Positions 12,846-21,169 of a stretch of DNA of 36,614 bases are shown piece by piece. Both the position numbers and the translations under genes were made by a program. Location of the stretch: IMG/VR virus record IMGVR_UViG_3300042804_000010, one strand, 5' to 3'. Below the pieces are notes generated by a model. It made no database searches, was not told the origin of the DNA, and saw only the letters and a program-made list of their open reading frames with translations. The stretch is from a virus. How positions within the stretch are numbered: position 1 is the first letter of the stretch; every line of letters starts with the position of its first letter.

Positions 12846-13490
12846 ATGACATTAGGTGAAAAGATTAGAGAACTAAGGACAAAAAAGGGCTATTCTCTTC
12901 GAAAATTGTCGAAAATAGTTGGTTCTGCTTCTCACTCCTATATTGCCGCTATAGAACGTGGCGAAAATAACCCATCATTAAACATATTGTCAGATATCGC
13001 AAATGTTCTTGGAGTATCAACAGCTTATTTATTGGACATTTATGATAAAGAAAAGTCTGGAAATGAAAAGTTTAAGATTGATGAACATTCAGGGGAGATT
13101 TCAAAAGAGGAGATGATTAGTGTGCCGATTGTCGGAGATGTAGCAGCAGGTGAACCAATACTCGCAGACGAACATATAGAAGGATATAGACAAATGCCCG
13201 CAAAAGACATCAATGGGGAATGTTTTTTGCTCAAAATTAAAGGCGATAGCATGATCAATGCAGGGATTCATGAAAACGATTTGGTATTAATCAGACAGCA
13301 GGCAAAAGTTGAGACCGGAGATATTGCAGCTGTAATGATTGATAATGAAAATGCGACATTAAAAAGAGTTTATTTTCATGACAATTCAGTTTTGCTGCAG
13401 TCTGAAAACTTGAAATATAAGCCGATGAATATTAATAATGAAAGAGTTAAAATTATTGGTAAAGCAATAGAAGTTATTCACAAACTATAA
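12846..13490 (+). CDS. CI-like repressor (N-terminal XRE HTH plus C-terminal S24/LexA-like peptidase domain)
   Basis: N-terminus LRKLSKIVGSASHSYIAAIERGENNPSLNIL; C-terminus ...PIVGDVAAGEPILA...KGDSMINAGI...KRVY with Ser/Lys dyad spacing typical of autocleaving repressors. Confidence 0.8.
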   Translation: MTLGEKIRELRTKKGYSLRKLSKIVGSASHSYIAAIERGENNPSLNILSDIANVLGVSTAYLLDIYDKEKSGNEKFKIDEHSGEISKEEMISVPIVGDVAAGEPILADEHIEGYRQMPAKDINGECFLLKIKGDSMINAGIHENDLVLIRQQAKVETGDIAAVMIDNENATLKRVYFHDNSVLLQSENLKYKPMNINNERVKIIGKAIEVIHKL

Positions 13491-14209: not shown

Positions 14210-14476
14210 ATGACAGATGTAATTATAGCGATACTTTGGTTTGTCGCAGGAGGGAATTGGTTATTATCAGCCGTAGTTTTTTATTTAGCTTTCAATGGAA
14301 TGCATTCAATGGCCCTTGCGGGTTCTAATTACGGCTTATTTGGAGCCTTTCAAGGCATAGCTCTTGGGGTTGCGCTTATTATAGTCGGCACTATTTTTGG
14401 AGCTGTGGCAGTTTTAATTTCAGAAGTTCGTGATTCAAAACAATTATTACAAAATATAATCAAAGAAGGTGATTAA
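14210..14476 (+). CDS. Small integral membrane protein (2-3 TM helices)
   Basis: 88 aa, Gly/Ala-rich hydrophobic segments (IIAILWFVAGGNWLLSAVVFYLAF; GIALGVALIIVGTIFGAVAVLI); stop abuts the integrase start. Confidence 0.5.
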   Translation: MTDVIIAILWFVAGGNWLLSAVVFYLAFNGMHSMALAGSNYGLFGAFQGIALGVALIIVGTIFGAVAVLISEVRDSKQLLQNIIKEGD

Positions 14477-15622
14477 ATGCCTCATATTGAAAAAACTGCA
14501 AATGGAAAGTATAAAGCTGTCATTGAAGTTGGCGCCGGCGCCAGGCGAAAAAGAAGAACAAAAACATTCGAAAGAAAAAAAGATGCAAAAAGCTGGCAAG
14601 CTAATATGTTAGTTGATCAAGAAAAAGGCAGATATGTTTCTTCCGCATCATTAACTGTCGGTGATCATATGCTTGACTGGCTGGATAACGAGAAGAAACC
14701 GCACATCGCCACAACTACTTATGATAATTACAAAAACCGTATAAAAACTTATATTATACCCGAAATAGGATATATTCCATTGCAGGAACTGGAGCCCTTC
14801 CATATTAGCCGATTTATGGGCTATTTAAGAAAGAATGGAAGTGTCAGGAATGATGGCGGCCTGTCTGAAAATACTCTCAAGAAAATATATGTAGTGCTTA
14901 ATTCAGCGATGGAAAAGGCAGTCCAGTGGCGGTTAATAAAATATAACCCAGTCCAGGCGATTGAATCACCACAACCGAAAAAGAAAGAAGCTAAGTCAAT
15001 GAGCTTTGAGGAAGTTCAAAAATTACTTGATTCAGTTAACGATAAATTTATGCACACATTTTTGAGTTTTGCTGTCCTTACCGGAATGAGAAAAAGTGAA
15101 ATGCTTGGCCTAGAGTGGTCAGAAGTTGATTTAGAGAATGAAACTGTCGAAGTAAAAAAGCGATTAGTTGTTAATCAAAATAGTGATCAGGGAATTGAGC
15201 ATGAAGAAGCGACAAAGCGAGAAGCCAGCAGAAGAGTGATTGCGATTCCTTCGAAACTGGCAAAAATATTGAAAAATTATAAGGTCCATCAAACAGAATT
15301 AAGGCTGCAGCTGGCGGATGAATATAATGATGAAAAGCAATTTGTTTTCTGTAAGTCTGACGGGAATCCTTATTATCCGTCAACAATTACTAGAAATGCA
15401 AAAAAGGCCATACTCAGAGCTGATTTAAGCTCCGAATACAGCCTTCATACATTGCGCCATACATTCGCTACCTTGCAACTTAAAACCGGGACAGATGCCA
15501 AAACTATACAAGAAATGCTCGGTCATGGGAATATCTCCACTACTATGGATATATACTCTCATGTTGATATTGACATGCAGAAAGAAGCCGCAAAGAAATT
15601 AGAAAATGAGATTGTTATTTAG
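14477..15622 (+). CDS. int: Tyrosine integrase (site-specific recombinase)
   Basis: C-terminal catalytic pattern ...HTLRHTFATLQL...LGHGNISTTMDIYSHV (R...HxxR...Y) and N-terminal SAM-like domain. Confidence 0.85.
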   Translation: MPHIEKTANGKYKAVIEVGAGARRKRRTKTFERKKDAKSWQANMLVDQEKGRYVSSASLTVGDHMLDWLDNEKKPHIATTTYDNYKNRIKTYIIPEIGYIPLQELEPFHISRFMGYLRKNGSVRNDGGLSENTLKKIYVVLNSAMEKAVQWRLIKYNPVQAIESPQPKKKEAKSMSFEEVQKLLDSVNDKFMHTFLSFAVLTGMRKSEMLGLEWSEVDLENETVEVKKRLVVNQNSDQGIEHEEATKREASRRVIAIPSKLAKILKNYKVHQTELRLQLADEYNDEKQFVFCKSDGNPYYPSTITRNAKKAILRADLSSEYSLHTLRHTFATLQLKTGTDAKTIQEMLGHGNISTTMDIYSHVDIDMQKEAAKKLENEIVI

Positions 15623-15646
15623 ACCCCTATTCGGGGTCTTTTTTAT
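15622..15646 (+). terminator. Rho-independent terminator after int
   Basis: gacccc-tattc-ggggtc hairpin immediately followed by ttttttt, overlapping the int stop codon. Confidence 0.7.
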
Positions 15647-15678
15647 TTATTATTTTTTAAAAAAGATTGATAAAACTC

Positions 15679-15707
15679 TTGACAGTACCACGCTATCGTG
15701 GTATAAT
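15679..15707 (+). promoter_or_regulatory. Near-consensus sigma70-type promoter (TTGACA-17-TATAAT) with a palindrome in the spacer
   Basis: TTGACA at 15679-15684, TATAAT at 15702-15707; the 17-bp spacer contains ccacg-ctat-cgtgg (5-bp inverted arms); followed by RBS AAAGGAGGA and ATG 15754. Confidence 0.65.
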
Positions 15708-15753
15708 TAAGTTGTAATAAAGAAAGGGAACAAAAATCAAAGGAGGAAAGATA

Positions 15754-16083
15754 ATGAAAAAACAAAAAAGAGTTGTTGGTGAAGTTTATATAGCAATAGG
15801 CAGAAATACACAGAAAGTTGTAGCGGTCGGGGAAAAGAATACTTATGAAAATAAAGAAAAATTAAAAGAGGCTGGTTACAAGTGGGATGCAAGCCAAAAA
15901 GAATGGATAAAAGAAGTTAAAATTGATATGACAGATATAGACCCAAAAAGTAAAGAAGACAATTTAAAAGTAGCAAAAAGAGCAGTTGAAATTTTAAGAG
16001 AACTACAAAAACCAGAATTTATTAACTTAATTGCCGATGAGCAAAGAACAAAAAAGATTATAGAATTTGCTGACAATCACTAA
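15754..16083 (+). CDS. Hypothetical protein (109 aa), first gene of post-int cassette
   Basis: ORF with strong RBS directly downstream of the consensus promoter; no recognisable family. Confidence 0.5.
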   Translation: MKKQKRVVGEVYIAIGRNTQKVVAVGEKNTYENKEKLKEAGYKWDASQKEWIKEVKIDMTDIDPKSKEDNLKVAKRAVEILRELQKPEFINLIADEQRTKKIIEFADNH

Positions 16084-16132
16084 TAAATTTTAGCTCTGCC
16101 GGTGGCTTAATAACCGGCAAAGGAGGATAAAA

Positions 16133-16507
16133 ATGATTATCAAATTAATTTTAGAACAATTCAAAAGCATTGAGCGGAATTATCAAGGTTCAGAAAATTA
16201 TCATCAAAATGAGATTGTGAAGGTTGTTGACCCAGATAGTGAATTTTATGGAGCAACAGGAAAATACAAAGGGTTAAAAGAAAGAAAAATACCACAAGAT
16301 ATTTACGAAGTTGAAATTATATCTTACCTCTGGAAAGTTATGACTTTCAAAGAGGCTTCAGAAAAATATGATGTGGCAGTATCAACATTAAGACATAGAG
16401 CCTCAGACGGAAGATTCGAAGATGGTGATATTAGGAAGTCGGGCAAAACTTGGTTAGTCACAAAATCAGCAATGGACCGGATATACGGAGGTGCAAAAAA
16501 TGACTGA
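16133..16507 (+). CDS. HTH-containing protein (possible excisionase-like DNA-binding domain)
   Basis: RBS AAAGGAGGA; C-terminal ...MTFKEASEKYDVAVSTLRHRASDGRFEDGDIRKSGKTWLV resembles excisionase/MerR-type HTH; lies between int and the candidate attP. Confidence 0.45.
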   Translation: MIIKLILEQFKSIERNYQGSENYHQNEIVKVVDPDSEFYGATGKYKGLKERKIPQDIYEVEIISYLWKVMTFKEASEKYDVAVSTLRHRASDGRFEDGDIRKSGKTWLVTKSAMDRIYGGAKND

Positions 16508-16721
16508 GTTCGAAAAAGCGGCTAAAGATTTACCTGTAGAAGTTAGATATGACCCCATTGACCAAAAGACAGTTGAAGATTTAGTTTTTGCAGCAGAGCT
16601 AGAATTAGATATAGTAGAAGGCAACGAAATACATTACAGAGATATGGACGGCAGAACAAAAAGAGGGGTAAAAATCAGGCTTAGAAATTTCATAGAGGAA
16701 TATAAAGACAACTCAGTTTAG
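16491..16721 (+). CDS. Hypothetical small acidic protein (76 aa)
   Basis: ORF overlapping the previous gene by 17 nt (translational coupling). Confidence 0.45.
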   Translation: MQKMTEFEKAAKDLPVEVRYDPIDQKTVEDLVFAAELELDIVEGNEIHYRDMDGRTKRGVKIRLRNFIEEYKDNSV

Positions 16722-16746
16722 CAGCTAGATTTTCCTTTTCTAAAAC

Positions 16747-16769
16747 TTTTCGGCACTAGCTCGGCACTT
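16747..16769. repeat. Direct repeat copy 1 (ttttcggcactagctcggcactt) flanking the tRNA-like core
   Basis: Shares TTTT-GGCAC-n4-TCGGCACTT with 17018-17040; contains two CGGCACT units 11 bp apart. Confidence 0.5.
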
Positions 16770-16788
16770 TAGCCGGGCTTTTATTTTT
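16760..16788 (+). terminator. Candidate terminator for the plus-strand cassette
   Basis: ctcggc-acttta-gccggg stem (one G-U pair) followed by cttttattttt. Confidence 0.35.
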
Positions 16789-16789
16789 G

Positions 16790-16825
16790 CAAATAAAAAA
16801 AGGACAACCACGAAGGCTGTCCTGT
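16790..16825 (-). terminator. Rho-independent terminator (minus strand) downstream of the tRNA-like fragment
   Basis: Hairpin aggacaacc/ggctgtcct (9-bp stem, one mismatch, 5-nt loop) at 16801-16823, followed on the minus strand by tttttttattt. Confidence 0.6.
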
Positions 16826-16837
16826 TAGTATTCTTAA

Positions 16838-16887
16838 TGGTGCGCCCGACAGGATTCGAACCTGTGGCCTACGGATTAGAAGTCCGT
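16838..16887 (-). other. 3' half of a tRNA-Arg(UCU)-like sequence (anticodon arm, variable loop, T-arm, acceptor 3' strand, CCA); candidate attP core
   Basis: Minus-strand read ACGGA-CTTCTAA-TCCGT AGGCC ACAGG-TTCGAAT-CCTGT CGGGCGC A CCA; the upstream 5' part has only weak acceptor complementarity (GCGCAAG) and no D-arm, so it is not a complete tRNA. Confidence 0.6.
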
Positions 16888-16939
16888 AAGAGGTGAAATC
16901 TTGCGCTTTCTTATGTTTTCTTTTGTTGCGACATTTAGT

Positions 16940-16968
16940 AGTATATCAACACTTTTTGGAGTTGTCAA
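16940..16968 (-). promoter_or_regulatory. Near-consensus promoter on minus strand (TTGACA-17-TATACT) directed into the tRNA-like fragment
   Basis: Plus-strand tgtcaa at 16963-16968 and agtata at 16940-16945 are reverse complements of the -35 and -10 boxes with a 17-bp spacer. Confidence 0.45.
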
Positions 16969-17017
16969 GACTTTTTGAAAAAATATTTATTCTGATGTTT
17001 TCTTAAATTTTGGCACG

Positions 17018-17040
17018 AACTCGGCACTTCCTACATTATA
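17018..17040. repeat. Direct repeat copy 2 (ttttggcacgaactcggcacttc)
   Basis: About 19 of 22 positions identical to copy 1, with an exact TCGGCACTT 9-mer; the two copies bracket the promoter, tRNA fragment and terminator. Confidence 0.5.
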
Positions 17041-17187
17041 TATAGTGATTAATTGTGCTTGTTATATTCTTTAGCAGCATCAATCAGCTTTTGCTCAAAG
17101 TCTAACTTTTTCTTACCGAGCAATTCTCTACTGGTACGCGGCCTGTATTCAGCTTTTAGATTTTCTCCAAACTCATCATAATCGAAT

Positions 17188-17493
17188 TTATTTTGACTTG
17201 CTTCGAAACTGGCCTACCACATTCATTAGATCAACTATGACATCTATAGCTTTGTCGACTAACCCCATCACAGTCTCTTTTTTGAAAGGAAGATCTACAG
17301 TATTATCTGCTGCATCATAGACGGCTTCGACTAATTCAACAATTGCTCTCTTCTTTTCCGGCCCATGCTTCTTCCCATCGTCAGTGTCAGCCTCTTCAAA
17401 AATTTCAACGAGTTCTTTAACTTCTTTAAGTACTCCAAAAGCCACCTGAAAAACAGTCCAAATTTTACTAATTGTAGTTAACATATTTAACAT
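17188..17493 (-). CDS. Putative holin (N-terminal TM helix, charged C-terminal domain)
   Basis: 101-aa ORF with N-terminal hydrophobic LTTISKIWTVFQVAFGVL; last gene of the lysis cassette. Confidence 0.5.
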   Translation of the reverse strand: MLNMLTTISKIWTVFQVAFGVLKEVKELVEIFEEADTDDGKKHGPEKKRAIVELVEAVYDAADNTVDLPFKKETVMGLVDKAIDVIVDLMNVVGQFRSKSK

Positions 17494-17511
17494 CTCCTTT
17501 TAGTTTGATAA

Positions 17512-17904
17512 TTATCTATTATCCCATCTTGCTTTGTAACCGCGAACATCACAATGAACAAAACTATTATATTTTCCTATACCATCAAAACCAGCTTTTT
17601 CAGCAAAACTTGCCATTACATCTGCATCAACCCCAGCTGGCAACCTTACATCAGCTGCAGTTCCTTCCAGATGTTGAGATTTTTTTGCACCTCCTATCTT
17701 TTGATTATAAGCTGGAGTTCTGTAGCCTGAGTTAATTATAAGCGGTGTATCTTTACCTTTGTGATCAGAAACTAGCCCTCTCAGTATTTCTAGCTTTTTT
17801 GGAAGCTCTGGGTCTAGCTTAACTGATTGGGTTTCATCCCGGCATTGAAATTCCCTTAAATTAAAATGTTTAGTTATTTGAAAATCATTTACTGACATTT
17901 GCAT
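17512..17904 (-). CDS. Endolysin, peptidase M15 family (zinc D-Ala-D-Ala carboxypeptidase-like)
   Basis: ...FNLREFQCRD...INSGYRTPAYNQKIGGAKKSQHLEGTAADV...HCDVR: His/Asp zinc-ligand pattern of M15 peptidases. Confidence 0.75.
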   Translation of the reverse strand: MQMSVNDFQITKHFNLREFQCRDETQSVKLDPELPKKLEILRGLVSDHKGKDTPLIINSGYRTPAYNQKIGGAKKSQHLEGTAADVRLPAGVDADVMASFAEKAGFDGIGKYNSFVHCDVRGYKARWDNR

Positions 17905-18143
17905 TAACCTCCCATCAATTTTACAGCCATCCCAACAATCATACTAGACATTACAGTTATCATTACTGTAATAGTCCAAGTTGGTCTGCCCTGTAAATTA
18001 TCAATAATTTTAGCTATGTCTTGTTTCATATTTTGTATATCTCCCTCATCAATATTGTTAATATCTTTTTTTAATGATCTTCCAAACTCACATCCTTCTT
18101 TGTTTAGCGTTTCTGGATTGATTTCTGCGTGTCCATTCGCCAT
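17904..18143 (-). CDS. XhlA-like holin-associated membrane protein
   Basis: 79 aa; N-terminal charged/coiled region and C-terminal TM helix WTITVMITVMSSMIVGMAV; abuts the endolysin gene. Confidence 0.55.
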   Translation of the reverse strand: MANGHAEINPETLNKEGCEFGRSLKKDINNIDEGDIQNMKQDIAKIIDNLQGRPTWTITVMITVMSSMIVGMAVKLMGG

Positions 18144-18237
18144 AATTTCACCTCAAAATTTGTTTATTATCTATTTGTTAATTATTTACTTTTAAGTAAA
18201 TAAGTCCGCTTAAAAAGTTTATTTCCACTGGGTAAAT

Positions 18238-19332
18238 CTATATGCTTTTTAATTTTAGCCGGTCGCCTAAATCCAATTGCTCCAGTATATGATCATCTAG
18301 TTTGTTTATCACTGACATTTTTAAATTATAACTATCGCAATGTTTAATTATTCCCAAGTAGGAATTAACACTGGCATTAATATCCTCGATATCCACCTTC
18401 CCTTCAAAATATTTTTTATTAAGATATTTAAATCGCTTTTTCATTTTCTTTTTAGTACTTTTCCTCAATTTGCTATAACTCGGATATAGAACATATCCGC
18501 AAAAATCTATTCCTTCATTCACATGTCCAACAGTAGTTTTATTATTAAGCTGCAGCTGGAGATAATCTTCTAAAAATATTTCTATTTCCTGTCTGATTGT
18601 ATGAAGCTTCTTTTTATCTTTTCCCAAAAGTACAAAGTCATCCATATACCGGACATAGTATTTTACTTTCAAGGTGTGCTTTACAAACTTATCTAAAAAA
18701 TCAAGATAAATATTTGCAAAAAGCTGGCTCATTAAGTTGCCGATTGGTGTGCCAATCCCTTTAACTTTTTTATTTTCAAAGAAGTGATCACCTAACTGGA
18801 TACCAAACTCACCATCTTCACTTTTGATTATCTGCCAGATTAATTCCAATGTATCTCTGCAGCTAATTTTCCTTTTTATTAACTGAAATAATCTTTTATG
18901 AACTATCCTGTAAAAATATTTTGAAACGTCTGCTTTTAAAAAATATGTTTTTCCGGGCTTTCGGTCCATTATCCTTAACTTGTCCTGTAATTGATATGCA
19001 GTGAAATGAGTACCCTTTCCTCTGCGACAAGCCCCGCTATATCTGTAAAATGCCTTATCAAATATCGGGTAAAGCTTTCGATATATGCTCCACTGGACCA
19101 CTCTGTCTTTAAAAGGCAAAGCCATGATCAGTCTTTTCTTTGGCTCATAGACATAAAACTGCCTGTATTTTCCCTGTTCATATGTTTTCCACATTAATTC
19201 ATTCTGTATCTCAATTAAATTTCTCTCTAAATTATAATTAAATTTCAGCACTTCCGGTTTGTATCTTTTCCTCTTTTGAGCTTTTTGAGTTGCTATTTCT
19301 AAATTATGATAATCAGTAATTTTCTCAAACAA
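18238..19332 (-). CDS. Diversity-generating retroelement reverse transcriptase
   Basis: RT motifs FYVYEPKKRLIMALPFKDRVVQ, GTHFTAY, IGTPIGNLMSQLFANIYL (DGR-type SQ in place of the usual QGxxxSP), YVRYMDDFVLLG (YxDD); about 360 aa, as for Bordetella phage Brt; apparent TTG start at 19332. Confidence 0.9.
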   Translation of the reverse strand: MFEKITDYHNLEIATQKAQKRKRYKPEVLKFNYNLERNLIEIQNELMWKTYEQGKYRQFYVYEPKKRLIMALPFKDRVVQWSIYRKLYPIFDKAFYRYSGACRRGKGTHFTAYQLQDKLRIMDRKPGKTYFLKADVSKYFYRIVHKRLFQLIKRKISCRDTLELIWQIIKSEDGEFGIQLGDHFFENKKVKGIGTPIGNLMSQLFANIYLDFLDKFVKHTLKVKYYVRYMDDFVLLGKDKKKLHTIRQEIEIFLEDYLQLQLNNKTTVGHVNEGIDFCGYVLYPSYSKLRKSTKKKMKKRFKYLNKKYFEGKVDIEDINASVNSYLGIIKHCDSYNLKMSVINKLDDHILEQLDLGDRLKLKSI

Positions 19333-19586
19333 ATTTTTGACTGTCTTAGGAATAAATAATCACCACTCTCTATATATTAGGTGAAATATTCAAGCCCGCT
19401 CAAATGAGAACGGGCTCATAACTAATCGTGACAGCTTTCGATATTTCGCTACTTGCTATCTAATTAGTAATTCATATGTTTTCCTGGAGGGACCTCAAAA
19501 TGTATCTCAGGAAGGACTAAAGGCCTGTTCATCTTTTTGAACACTGCAGCAGAGGCCTTGACCCCATACTGTCTGATAAATTTGTA

Positions 19587-19703
19587 GATGAGCACAGGCG
19601 CCACGCACGCCAATGTTAGTGTTCACGTTCCACGGGTTATTGTTCGAGTTGACCGTCCGAGCACCGCAGATGCTACCATTGTTGAAGTTGCCACCGGCGA
19701 GGA
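19587..19703 (-). repeat. DGR template repeat (TR), 117 bp
   Basis: 102 of 117 positions identical to VR (20143-20259); all 15 differences are at TR adenines on the coding strand; carries 11 AAY codons in the VR frame. Confidence 0.9.
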
Positions 19704-19727
19704 CCAACGCCCTTAGCCCTATAAAAT

Positions 19728-20081
19728 TTATTTTTTATTTTCACAAGACTTAATCCAGCCACCCAGAAGGCGGCCAATTTCGTCTATTTTTTTGACTACA
19801 ATTTCATGTTTTCTTATAGATAAAAAATGCATATCTTTAGCAAGTCTAATTTTAACTTTTAGCTTTTTAAGTTCATCATCTATCCGGTTTAAAAATCTTA
19901 TCTTACTTCCTCGAGCTTCATTTGCATCTATTATCAATTCCATAATTCTATCTAATTTATTTTTGATTTTTGTACACATTGCAAACTTTTCTCTTTTTGG
20001 AAAATTATCAATTACTGGGTAAAAATAAAGAGTAAAGTCATAATGTTTTCTAAATATCACGAGATCATCTGTGTCTGCCAA
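19728..20081 (-). CDS. avd: DGR accessory variability determinant (Avd)
   Basis: 117-aa basic helical protein located between the target gene and TR, as in canonical DGRs; TTG start preceded by AAGGAG with a 7-nt spacer. Confidence 0.75.
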   Translation of the reverse strand: MADTDDLVIFRKHYDFTLYFYPVIDNFPKREKFAMCTKIKNKLDRIMELIIDANEARGSKIRFLNRIDDELKKLKVKIRLAKDMHFLSIRKHEIVVKKIDEIGRLLGGWIKSCENKK

Positions 20082-20131
20082 ATCATCACTCCTTCAAGTT
20101 CTAAACCTAACCAAAAACCATTATCAGATTA

Positions 20132-21169
20132 TCAGGCACTCTGATGAGCACAGGCGCCACGCACGCCAACGCTAGTGTTCACGTCCCACGGGCGAAAGTC
20201 CGAGCTGACCGTCCGAGCACCGCAGAGGCCACCACTGCTGAAGCCGCCACCGGCGAGGAGGCCAATAATAGCCACATTATTTTGCATGTAAGCTTCACCA
20301 TGCTGATAACCGCTGTCTTTACCTGCATTAAGCACATCATACCAACTGAATGAAGTTGAGCCAGTATTTCTATAAGTATACTCGTCTAATCTTTCCCAAA
20401 GGTTACCAGCGCAATCTACAAGGTTATAGCAAGAAACTGCTTGTTCTACAGTTCCAGTTGAAGTTCGACCTGAATTACTTGAACTAGACCAAGCGGCATT
20501 ATTATCATTTTCGTGGCCTTCTGGGCTACCATAGGCAGCCATTAACCATTCCTGCCTGGTTAATTTTCTTTTGTTGACATTTGCAAGACCCCTAATGAAA
20601 TCATAATCATTATAACCCTCAGTTCCTGAGACCGGGGTCGCATTGTATTCACTCACAAGTTCAGTTTCCGGCCAGGTTCCGCTGCCTTCACTTGCAATAT
20701 ATATATCAGCCCAAAAGTTTGATACCTTGACCATTCCAGTAGGGTCACAGGCAGGTCTGTAGTTCAATGACCAGACTGAGTTTGGCAGTATATTAACTGC
20801 AATTGAGGCTGTATCATCATATCTTTGAGCGTTTGTTCTGATGCGGCCATAATGAAAACCACCAATTTTTCTGCTATTATTTTCTGTATACCCGTCTGGA
20901 TAAGTAGAGTTGATAGAAATAACAAAATCGGGCTCTGCATCAGCTGATGGCTGCAAAGCATATATATAATAGTTTTCGCCAAGCGTGAAACTTACAAAAC
21001 TGCCGTCGCTATCAGCTTCAGTCAAAATAGTATCAGTTTCTTTTTTGAGATTCTGTCTATCAATTCTCAAAGCTAATGGAGGTACTGTAACTTCATCAGC
21101 TGCACTCTTTTCAATATGGCCTTTGAAATTGTAGAATGAAGGTGAATCAGCTCCAACAAAAGTTAACAT
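20132..21169 (-). CDS. DGR target protein: distal tail/receptor-binding protein with C-terminal C-type-lectin/FGE-like fold carrying the VR
   Basis: C-terminal ...SCYNLVDCAGNLWERLDEY...LLAGGGFSSGGLCGARTVSSDFRPWDVNTSVGVRGACAHQSA; VR occupies the last about 39 codons; last gene of the tail module. Confidence 0.85.
   Translation of the reverse strand: MLTFVGADSPSFYNFKGHIEKSAADEVTVPPLALRIDRQNLKKETDTILTEADSDGSFVSFTLGENYYIYALQPSADAEPDFVISINSTYPDGYTENNSRKIGGFHYGRIRTNAQRYDDTASIAVNILPNSVWSLNYRPACDPTGMVKVSNFWADIYIASEGSGTWPETELVSEYNATPVSGTEGYNDYDFIRGLANVNKRKLTRQEWLMAAYGSPEGHENDNNAAWSSSSNSGRTSTGTVEQAVSCYNLVDCAGNLWERLDEYTYRNTGSTSFSWYDVLNAGKDSGYQHGEAYMQNNVAIIGLLAGGGFSSGGLCGARTVSSDFRPWDVNTSVGVRGACAHQSA
20143..20259 (-). 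repeat. DGR variable repeat (VR), 117 bp, at the 3' end of the target gene
   Basis: Aligns to TR 19587-19703; the coding-strand 3' end is a GC-rich invariant segment ggcgtgcgtggcgcctgtgctcatc (IMH-like). Confidence 0.9.

What the first reader, a model, noticed from the sequence alone, without database searches (positions are those of the whole stretch)
16747..17040. Near-identical 23-bp direct repeats bracket the candidate attP core
ttttcggcactagctcggcactt (16747-16769) and ttttggcacgaactcggcacttc (17018-17040) share TTTT-GGCAC-n4-TCGGCACTT, each with two GGCAC units about one helical turn apart. They flank the tRNA-like core by about 70 and 130 bp, an arrangement reminiscent of integrase arm-type sites; copy 1 also overlaps a possible plus-strand terminator stem.
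Basis: seen in the sequence. Interest (0 to 1): 0.5.

Follow-up and report, generated by a model that had tools for sequence, protein, structure and literature searches.

The report
Integrase arm-type sites flanking phage attP
Two pairs of short GGCAC repeats on either side of a phage's tRNA-derived attachment site are most likely docking sites for the small N-terminal domain of its integrase, an ordinary but well-conserved example of a known arrangement.

Summary
The repeats are real. Copy 1 is at 16747-16769 as stated. Copy 2 is at 17008-17030, not 17018-17040. Each copy holds two T(C/T)GGCAC units 11 bp apart. They flank a 50-nt block identical to nucleotides 27-76 of tRNA-Arg(UCU), which lies on the minus strand at 16838-16887.

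The phage encodes a tyrosine integrase (14477-15622). Its first ~50 residues model as a three-strand-plus-helix, AP2-like arm-binding domain.

In six near-identical relatives the units are invariant, while the 4-nt spacers and the flanks diverge. Fourteen of 15 integrase lineages (41-95% identity) carry a dyad, across five tRNA targets. The dyad is GGCAC in 10 lineages and GGAAC, GGCTA or GGCGAC in the rest.

Its position is the same wherever the anticodon loop can be read:
- about -130/-119 from the anticodon-loop centre;
- where the other arm is present, about +119..+133 and +130..+144;
- always on the strand antisense to the tRNA, whichever side the int gene lies.

Binding itself is inferred, not shown. 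A sigma-54 promoter, an operator or a purely terminator origin fit poorly.

This is a new member of a known kind, like the paired 11-bp arm sites of mycobacteriophages. Interest is moderate to low.

The parts
14477..15622 (+). Tyrosine integrase, 381 aa. Residues ~1-50 form the presumed arm-binding N-terminal domain, ~60-160 the SAM-like core-binding domain, and 174-364 the catalytic domain.
16748..16769 (+). Left arm dyad, on the tRNA-3' side and proximal to int. Units TCGGCAC (16750-16756) and TCGGCACTT (16761-16769), 11 bp apart. GGCAC starts lie at -127 and -116 from the anticodon-loop centre.
   Evidence: The units are conserved and the spacer varies in relatives. A PWM built only from relatives scores both units in the top 4 of all window positions.
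16758..16779 (+). Plus-strand intrinsic terminator whose 5' stem is formed by the second left unit. It ends the int operon in relatives and the inserted cassette in this window.
16801..16823 (-). Minus-strand intrinsic terminator just downstream of the tRNA 3' end. It would serve the reconstituted tRNA gene after integration.
   Evidence: 9-pair stem plus T7 tail; -16.8 kcal/mol, z = -4.9.
16838..16887 (-). attP identity block, equal to nucleotides 27-76 of tRNA-Arg(UCU): anticodon stem-loop, variable loop, T arm, 3' acceptor strand and CCA.
   Evidence: ARAGORN finds no complete tRNA. The Rfam tRNA model matches here. The block is 48/50 identical to the complete tRNA-Arg next to the integrase in prophage locus L178, and similarity stops exactly at the 5' end of the anticodon stem. 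There are 86-92% matches to argU-type attP and tRNA-Arg sequences in GenBank phages.
16871..16887 (-). Anticodon stem-loop (stems 16871-16875 and 16883-16887, loop 16876-16882). Inferred crossover region with inverted core-type half-sites.
   Evidence: This is an inference. It is the innermost part of the identity block, and the arm dyads keep a constant distance to it rather than to the tRNA 3' end across class I and class II tRNAs.
17008..17029 (+). Right arm dyad, on the tRNA-5' side. Units TTGGCAC (17010-17016) and TCGGCACTT (17021-17029), 11 bp apart. GGCAC starts lie at +133 and +144 from the anticodon-loop centre.
   Evidence: In the L001 haplotype the units are 7/7 and 9/9 identical, while the spacer is 0/4, the inner flank 45/64 and the outer flank 42/92.

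Best explanation
The two repeats are the arm-type (P and P') binding sites of the phage attP. Each arm carries a dyad of two T(C/T)GGCAC units one helical turn apart, giving four units in all.

The integrase (14477-15622) is a heterobivalent tyrosine recombinase. Its core-binding and catalytic domains act at the anticodon stem-loop of the tRNA-Arg(UCU)-identical core. Its small N-terminal three-strand-plus-helix domain binds the GGCAC units about 120-140 bp away on either side. The AT-rich arms, probably helped by a host bending protein, fold back so that Int protomers bridge arm and core sites. This assembles the intasome that recombines attP with the host tRNA gene. Four units would match the four protomers of an Int tetramer.

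Shown here:
- the repeats and their statistics;
- selective conservation of the units;
- the fixed geometry across many lineages and five tRNA targets;
- the domain make-up of Int;
- prophage junctions in relatives.

Inferred: that Int's N domain is the protein that binds the units, the crossover position, arm folding, and the one-unit-per-protomer stoichiometry.
For: 1. The repeats are non-random. Exact TCGGCACTT and GGCAC-N4-TCGGCAC occur only here in 36.6 kb.

2. Conservation is selective in 93-95% relatives. The units are invariant, the right spacer is 0/4 identical and the flanks are 46-70% identical. The 260-bp spacing is exact despite a 10-bp indel just outside the right dyad.

3. The pattern holds across the family. 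In 14 of 15 integrase lineages (41-95% identity) a dyad or triplet of units with 10-12 bp period lies on the tRNA-3' side. Wherever the anticodon loop is in the contig, the dyad sits at -132..-127 / -121..-116 from the loop centre. The six lineages caught as attP have a second dyad at +119..+133 / +130..+144.

4. The distance is constant to the anticodon loop, not to the tRNA 3' end. The distance to the 3' end ranges from 78 to 91 bp and is shortest for the long-arm tRNA-Ser lineages.

5. In L022 and L185 the tRNA fragment and the units are both inverted relative to int. In the tRNA frame the geometry is then the same to the base: -131/-120, +124/+135 and -129/-118, +133/+144. The motif there is GGAAC. 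L173 mixes GGCAC and GGAAC arms.

6. Int has an N-terminal beta-beta-beta-alpha domain resembling AP2 and arm-binding domains. Many homologues carry precomputed Pfam Arm-DNA-bind_4 hits.

7. L017 and L178 show the int-proximal dyad next to a complete tRNA-Arg, which is the expected prophage junction.

8. Precedent exists. Two pairs of 11-bp repeats flank the core in Cluster K, Giles and L5 mycobacteriophages (PMC3203893). In lambda, a heterobivalent Int makes four arm-core bridges (PMC4880445).
Against: There is no binding or recombination data.

The link between N-domain residues and motif is imperfect. Residue 13 is Lys in the nine other GGCAC lineages, and Ile or Arg in the GGCTA, GGCGAC and GGAAC lineages, but L186 has Arg13 with GGCAC.

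Two IMG/VR att-like regions (L012, L009) carry the same GGCAC dyads next to integrases whose N-terminal regions show no similarity to this family. The motif is therefore not uniquely tied to this N domain.

The second left unit also forms a terminator stem, so part of its conservation could reflect that role.

The host genome and true attB were not found.
Confidence: 0.8

Rival explanations
1. The dyads are binding sites for an accessory protein rather than for Int. Candidates are a recombination directionality factor (excisionase-like HTH) or a host architectural protein that shapes the attP arms.
For: Tandem direct repeats with about 10-11 bp period are also typical of Xis-type sites. HTH_17 or excisionase-like genes occur in the window (16133-16507, phrog_2655 E=3e-15) and in several relatives. 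The same GGCAC dyads occur beside integrases with unrelated N-terminal regions in L012 and L009.
Against: The dyads sit in both arms at near-symmetric distances, whereas RDF sites are normally confined to one arm (established knowledge for lambda and L5). The window's excisionase-like gene lies in a cassette that is absent from L001-L005 and L093, which keep both dyads unchanged. The motif varies between lineages (GGCAC, GGAAC, GGCTA, GGCGAC), which does not fit a single conserved host factor.
Confidence: 0.1
2. The repeats are sigma-54 (-24/-12) promoters. TGGCAC-N5-(T)CGGCA gives the GG-N10-GC spacing.
For: The right copy reads TGGCACGAACTCGGCA. That is a perfect -24 TGGCACG with GC at the -12 position. 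In L012 the int-proximal dyad lies about 25 bp upstream of the int start codon.
Against: Unit spacing in the family is 10, 11 or 12 bp (L017 and L186: 10; L178 and L180: 12). Sigma-54 promoters need a fixed spacing. The T's of the -12 TTGC and the T before GG are not conserved; variants include CAGGCAC, TAGGCAC and TGGGCAC. Some lineages have GGAAC or GGCTA instead. In the window the left copy would fire straight into a terminator and antisense to the tRNA block. The right copy would fire antisense to the late operon.
Confidence: 0.03
3. The similarity is a by-product of other signals (terminator stem on the left, -35-like TTGGCA on the right), or a chance or duplication remnant with no function of its own.
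For: Left unit 2 is the 5' half of a good terminator. The same happens in L094 and L173. The right copy gives a weak sigma-70-like match, TTGGCA-16-TACATT, 9 of 12.
Against: The right copy has no terminator. Many lineages have left dyads with no hairpin (L017, L176, L178). A 10-bp insertion between the right dyad and the putative -10 in the L001 haplotype breaks that promoter reading but leaves the dyad intact. Chance cannot explain the same dyad at the same offset in 14 lineages.
Confidence: 0.04
4. The repeats are operators for the phage repressor (LexA/CI-like, 12846-13490) or another transcription regulator.
For: The phage encodes an HTH plus S24 peptidase repressor. Isolated TCGGCAC units occur at 14385, 13118(-) and 11461(-), in the lysogeny region.
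Against: No dyad lies in the repressor/cro intergenic region. The isolated units are single. No GGCAC unit lies within 3 kb upstream of int in the five close relatives scanned, so the unit at 14385 is not conserved. Repressor operators are normally palindromic, and these repeats are direct. The position tracks the tRNA anticodon loop, not any promoter.
Confidence: 0.03

Closest known systems
Paired arm-type sites of mycobacteriophage attP sites (L5, Giles, Cluster K such as CrimD; PMC3203893)
   Same: Two pairs of ~11-bp repeats flank a tRNA- or tmRNA-derived common core next to a tyrosine integrase gene. In L5 and Giles the pairs are in direct orientation. A stem-loop terminator lies inside the attP. 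Small motif changes accompany N-domain substitutions between relatives.
   Different: The motif (T(C/T)GGCAC) is different, and so are the integrase lineage (Tn916/Tn1549-like, Bacillota-type) and the hosts. In CrimD one pair is inverted. L5 has additional arm sites, whereas only four units are seen here. The L5 sites were footprinted (from memory); these were not.
Bacteriophage lambda attP arm-type sites P1, P2, P'1-P'3 (PMC4880445; Ross and Landy 1982, as cited there)
   Same: A heterobivalent Int whose N-terminal domain binds repeats in both arms far from the crossover site. Adjacent sites are about one helical turn apart. Int makes four bridges between arm and core sites during integration.
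   Different: Lambda has five sites arranged asymmetrically, plus mapped IHF, Xis and Fis sites. Its core is not a tRNA gene. Here there are two symmetric dyads, and no accessory sites have been identified.
Tn916/Tn1545 integrase N-terminal domain and its DR2 arm repeats (established knowledge; the Tn1549 Int structure 6en0 is the closest solved relative)
   Same: Same integrase branch by catalytic-domain sequence. A three-stranded-sheet-plus-helix N domain binds direct repeats near both element ends.
   Different: Those are conjugative transposons with AT-rich, non-tRNA targets, and the repeat sequence is different. The solved Tn1549 chains match only residues 123-373 of the query profile, so no structural comparison of the N domain was possible.

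Membership tests
Arm-type Int-binding sites of a heterobivalent tyrosine integrase | The element encodes a tyrosine recombinase with a catalytic domain and a SAM-like core-binding domain | tested here: met
   Pfam Phage_integrase E=9.5e-31 and Phage_int_SAM_3 E=1.5e-10. PDB profile hits to Tn1549 Int, XerA and lambda Int.
Arm-type Int-binding sites of a heterobivalent tyrosine integrase | Int carries an additional small N-terminal arm-binding domain | tested here: met
Arm-type Int-binding sites of a heterobivalent tyrosine integrase | Repeated motif in both arms, outside the core and unrelated in sequence to it | tested here: met
   Dyads at 16748-16769 and 17008-17029, lying 68 and 120 bp from the tRNA-identical block.
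Arm-type Int-binding sites of a heterobivalent tyrosine integrase | Motif conserved among elements that share the integrase, while the surrounding sequence drifts | tested here: met
   Units are 7/7 and 9/9 identical, against spacer 0/4 and flanks 45/64 and 42/92. A dyad is present in 14 of 15 integrase lineages.
Arm-type Int-binding sites of a heterobivalent tyrosine integrase | Position fixed relative to the crossover region, as required by intasome geometry | tested here: met
   Offsets are -132..-127 / -121..-116 and +119..+133 / +130..+144 from the anticodon-loop centre. This holds across Arg, Ser, Ala, Cys and Leu tRNA targets, including loci where int lies on the other side.
Arm-type Int-binding sites of a heterobivalent tyrosine integrase | Specific binding by the Int N-terminal domain, and a requirement for recombination | not testable with these tools
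   This needs EMSA or footprinting and integration assays.
attP with a tRNA 3'-part core (anticodon-loop sublocation) | The phage carries a block identical to the tRNA from the crossover region to the 3' end, but no complete tRNA | tested here: met
   No ARAGORN tRNA. The Rfam tRNA match covers 16841-16906. The block is 48/50 identical to tRNA nucleotides 27-76 of L178, with similarity ending at the anticodon stem.
attP with a tRNA 3'-part core (anticodon-loop sublocation) | The integrated form shows int - arm - complete tRNA at one junction | tested here: met
   Seen in relatives L017, L178/L179, L094, L183 and L186. Not seen for this phage itself.
attP with a tRNA 3'-part core (anticodon-loop sublocation) | A matching attB in the host genome, with the crossover mapped | not tested
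   The one genome-contig scan found only a 28% identical integrase in a Bacteroidetes MAG. The host remains unidentified.
Sigma-54 promoter | Fixed GG-N10-GC spacing, a conserved TGGCAC / TTGCW, and a sensible downstream transcription unit | tested here: not met
   Unit spacing is 10-12 bp across the family. The -12 T's and the -26 T are not conserved. The left copy faces a terminator.
Intrinsic terminator | A G+C-rich hairpin followed by a T run | tested here: inconclusive
   Met for the second unit of the left copy (16758-16779). Not met for the right copy or for the left dyads of L017, L176 and L178. A terminator role is therefore an add-on, not the explanation of the repeat.

The most novel reading that the evidence does not exclude
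The dyads may reveal an undescribed, rigid and modular attP design used by a whole family of Tn916-like phage integrases. In this design four arm units are set at about -130/-119 and +125..+133/+135..+144 from the anticodon loop. The family has retargeted to at least five different tRNA genes by swapping only the core, and the arm code drifts by single bases (GGCAC, GGAAC, GGCTA). If one unit serves each Int protomer, this would be a simpler intasome than lambda's and a convenient scaffold for designing retargetable integrases.
Probability: 0.35. Interest if true: 0.5.

Novelty: new member of a known kind. Interest (0 to 1): 0.35.

Why it matters
It delimits the functional attP of an uncultured DGR-carrying temperate phage to roughly 16748-17029 and predicts its target, the anticodon-loop region of a tRNA-Arg(UCU) gene.

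The family comparison gives a directly testable rule: GG(C/A)AC dyads at fixed distances from the anticodon loop, antisense to the tRNA. That rule could be used to find att sites and prophage ends for this integrase family in metagenomes, and to design minimal attP substrates.

It does not change the current understanding of tyrosine-integrase recombination.

Tried and rejected
- GenBank phage search (blastn, distant mode) with 14400-18200 matched only the ~50-nt tRNA-Arg block, so no described relative was found.
- The single genome-contig scan gave only a 28% identical integrase in a Bacteroidetes MAG, so the host and attB were not found.
- The single metagenome scan was saturated by generic catalytic-motif patterns and added only L093 and L094.
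- A pattern scan of IMG/VR for two dyads 225-255 bp apart returned L011, a G+C-rich coding tandem repeat, which I discarded. It also returned L012 and L009. These look like att regions but have integrases whose N-terminal regions show no detectable similarity to this family. I treat them as convergence within a motif-selected sample, not as family members.
- I tested a simple recognition code in which residue 13 is Lys for GGCAC. It held in the first 12 lineages, then L186 (Arg13 with GGCAC) broke it. I report it only as a hint.
- The best PWM hit in the window outside attP (TCGGCACTATT at 14385, 90 bp upstream of int) has no counterpart in the close relatives, where no GGCAC lies upstream of int, so it is probably chance.
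- A profile search of the N domain against PDB sequences found nothing useful.
- Literature searches for GGCAC arm-type sites and for Tn916 DR2 found nothing relevant.
- L187 (44% identical integrase) has neither a tRNA nor a dyad next to int.

Full report
**Observation**

Copy 1 (ttttcggcactagctcggcactt) is at 16747-16769, exactly as reported. The sequence given for copy 2 (ttttggcacgaactcggcacttc) is at 17008-17030, so the reported 17018-17040 is shifted by 10 bases.

The repeat finder gives the ungapped pair 16748-16769 / 17008-17029: 22 nt, 86% identity, 260 bp start to start. Each copy is itself a dyad, with GGCAC at 16752 and 16763 and at 17012 and 17023, an 11-bp period.

The exact 9-mer TCGGCACTT occurs only twice in the window, both times here. 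GGCAC-N4-TCGGCAC occurs exactly only at these two places.

**Setting**

The window is a temperate phage genome with about 35% G+C. Its layout is as follows:
- A LexA/CI-like repressor lies at 12846-13490 and a tyrosine integrase at 14477-15622, both on the plus strand.
- The late genes run on the minus strand from 17188 onward, starting with an M15 endolysin at 17512-17904.
- Between them, on the minus strand, 16838-16887 equals nucleotides 27-76 of tRNA-Arg(UCU). That covers the anticodon stem-loop, T arm, 3' acceptor strand and CCA.

ARAGORN finds no complete tRNA, while the Rfam tRNA model matches this block. Known phages that integrate at argU-type tRNAs match only this block.

Compared with the complete tRNA-Arg beside the integrase in prophage locus L178, the window is 48/50 identical. 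Similarity stops exactly at the 5' end of the anticodon stem. This is the usual signature of an attP whose crossover lies in the anticodon-loop region.

A minus-strand terminator (16823-16801) follows the tRNA 3' end. A plus-strand terminator (16758-16779) uses the second left unit as its 5' stem.

**Close relatives**

Six metagenomic contigs encode 93-95% identical integrases: L001-L005 and L093. All carry the same tRNA block. All contigs that reach the right arm carry both dyads at identical offsets of -127/-116 and +133/+144.

Conservation is selective. Against the L001 haplotype the figures are as follows:

| Segment | Identity to the window |
|---|---|
| Right unit 1 | 7/7 |
| Right unit 2 | 9/9 |
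| 4-nt spacer between the right units | 0/4 |
| Inner flank, 16946-17009 | 45/64 |
| Outer flank | 42/92 |

The L001 haplotype also has a 10-bp insertion just outside the right dyad. On the left, the spacer reads TAGC, CAGC or GAGC in different contigs.

In these relatives the left dyad begins 18 bp after the int stop codon. The window has an extra 1.1-kb cassette (15623-16746) inserted between int and the dyad.

**Wider family**

Integrase homologues of 41-56% identity were traced to their contigs. A dyad or triplet with 10-12 bp period lies on the tRNA-3' side in 14 of 15 lineages.

GGCAC units occur in 10 lineages:
- the window group;
- L017 (TTCGGCACTT x2 plus a GGCAT unit);
- L178/L179;
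- L094 (TGGGCAC x2);
- L173;
- L176;
- L180;
- L181/L182;
- L183 (three units);
- L186.

Variant units occur in the same place in the other four:
- L184: TCGGCT x3 on the left and TGGCTAAAA x2 on the right;
- L177: GGCGAC x2;
- L020-L022 and L185: GGAAC x2 in both arms.

The tRNA targets differ. Read from the anticodon loops, they are Arg(UCU), Ser(UGA), Ala(GGC), Cys(GCA) and Leu(CAA).

**Geometry**

Wherever the anticodon loop lies inside the contig, the geometry is constant. Unit starts are at -132..-127 and -121..-116 from the loop centre. In the six lineages caught as attP, a second dyad lies at +119..+133 and +130..+144.

The distance to the tRNA 3' end ranges from 78 to 91 bp. It is shortest for the three tRNA-Ser lineages, which have a long variable arm. 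The distance to the anticodon loop stays at about 130 bp.

In L185 and L022 the tRNA fragment is on the same strand as int. When those loci are flipped into the tRNA frame, the offsets become -131/-120, +124/+135 and -129/-118, +133/+144. The geometry and unit orientation therefore follow the tRNA core, not the int gene. The units always lie antisense to the tRNA.

L173 has GGCAC-type units in one arm and TGGGAAC units in the other. GGCAC and GGAAC therefore look like variants of one code.

**The protein**

Residues 1-64 of Int, modelled with a 30-sequence alignment, give three strands (3-6, 12-18, 25-31) and a helix (34-50), with block-mean pLDDT 85-92 over residues 1-40.

Pfam Arm-DNA-bind_4 matches residues 12-51 at E=1.4e-3, below its cutoff. 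Several homologues carry the precomputed hit. By sequence, the closest solved structure is Tn1549 Int.

Residue 13 is Lys in the nine other GGCAC lineages. It is Ile or Arg in the GGCTA, GGCGAC and GGAAC lineages. L186 has Arg13 with GGCAC, so this is only a hint.

**Interpretation**

The best explanation is that the four units are arm-type sites bound by the Int N-terminal domain. Int protomers would bridge them to core-type sites at the anticodon stem-loop after the AT-rich arms fold back.

The repeats, their selective conservation, the geometry, the domain architecture and the prophage junctions in relatives (L017, L178) are shown. Binding by Int, the crossover point and a one-unit-per-protomer stoichiometry are inferred. 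The stoichiometry idea draws on the four Int bridges in lambda integration (PMC4880445).

Paired 11-bp repeats flanking a tRNA- or tmRNA-derived core are well precedented in mycobacteriophages CrimD, Giles and L5 (PMC3203893).

**Rivals**

- **Sigma-54 promoter.** This is suggested by TGGCACG-N4-CGGC. It is contradicted by the 10-12 bp variation in spacing, the poor -12 element, motif variants such as GGAAC, and the orientation into a terminator.
- **Terminator or sigma-70 by-product.** This explains only the second left unit and fails in lineages without hairpins.
- **Accessory-protein (RDF) sites.** These cannot be excluded, but they fit poorly with symmetric occupancy of both arms. The excisionase-like gene is also missing from relatives that keep the dyads.
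- **Repressor operators.** These do not fit direct repeats positioned relative to a tRNA.

One loose end remains. L012 and L009, found by a motif scan of IMG/VR, have the same GGCAC dyads around tRNA fragments, but their integrases show no N-domain similarity. The scan selected for the motif, so convergence is plausible, but it is unproven.

**Verdict**

This is a new member of a known kind. Its added value is a sharply defined, tRNA-referenced attP geometry for an uncharacterised integrase family.

Noticed in passing
window 18238-21169 (minus strand): A complete diversity-generating retroelement. The reverse transcriptase is at 18238-19332 (RVT_1) and Avd at 19728-20081 (phrog_3206). The template repeat is at 19587-19703 and the variable repeat at 20143-20259, at the 3' end of a tail-protein gene (20132-21169). 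Within the 117-nt repeat every TR/VR mismatch falls at an adenine of the template.
   Followed up: partly
window 15623-16746: A 1.1-kb cassette is inserted between the int stop codon and the left arm dyad, and is absent from L001-L005 and L093. It has its own terminator after int, a consensus TTGACA-17-TATAAT promoter (~15680-15708) and three ORFs. One ORF is an excisionase-like HTH protein (16133-16507; HTH_59, phrog_2655).
   Followed up: partly
window 16940-16968 (minus strand), reading towards 16800: A strong sigma-70-like promoter lies inside the right arm: TTGACA-17-TATACT with an upstream TG, 11 of 12 matches. Its hexamers are conserved although the spacer has diverged in the L001 haplotype. 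It points at the tRNA fragment and the minus-strand terminator, so it could make an RNA of about 130 nt. Rfam scores 16841-16906 as a D-arm-less tRNA (32.5 bits), but the 5' part is not conserved in L184.
   Followed up: partly
L012 1498-1770 and L009 4781-5057 (IMG/VR contigs): These are unrelated att-like regions with GGCAC-N4-TCGGCAC dyads on both sides of tRNA 3' fragments. They sit next to integrases with only 21% catalytic-domain identity or less, and no detectable N-domain similarity to the window's Int. The cause may be convergence, chance in a motif-selected sample, or a shared reader.
   Followed up: partly
L173 4255-4580: This attP has mixed arms: TCGGCAC/TGGGCAC at -131/-120 and TGGGAAC x2 at +119/+130. 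Inverted GTTCC units lie further out at +169/+181. It may be a transitional arm code or the remnant of a second element.
   Followed up: no
window 14385, 13118(-), 11461(-): Isolated TCGGCAC units occur in the lysogeny region. The one at 14385, 90 bp upstream of int, is the best PWM hit in the window. No GGCAC lies upstream of int in the close relatives, so it is probably chance.
   Followed up: yes
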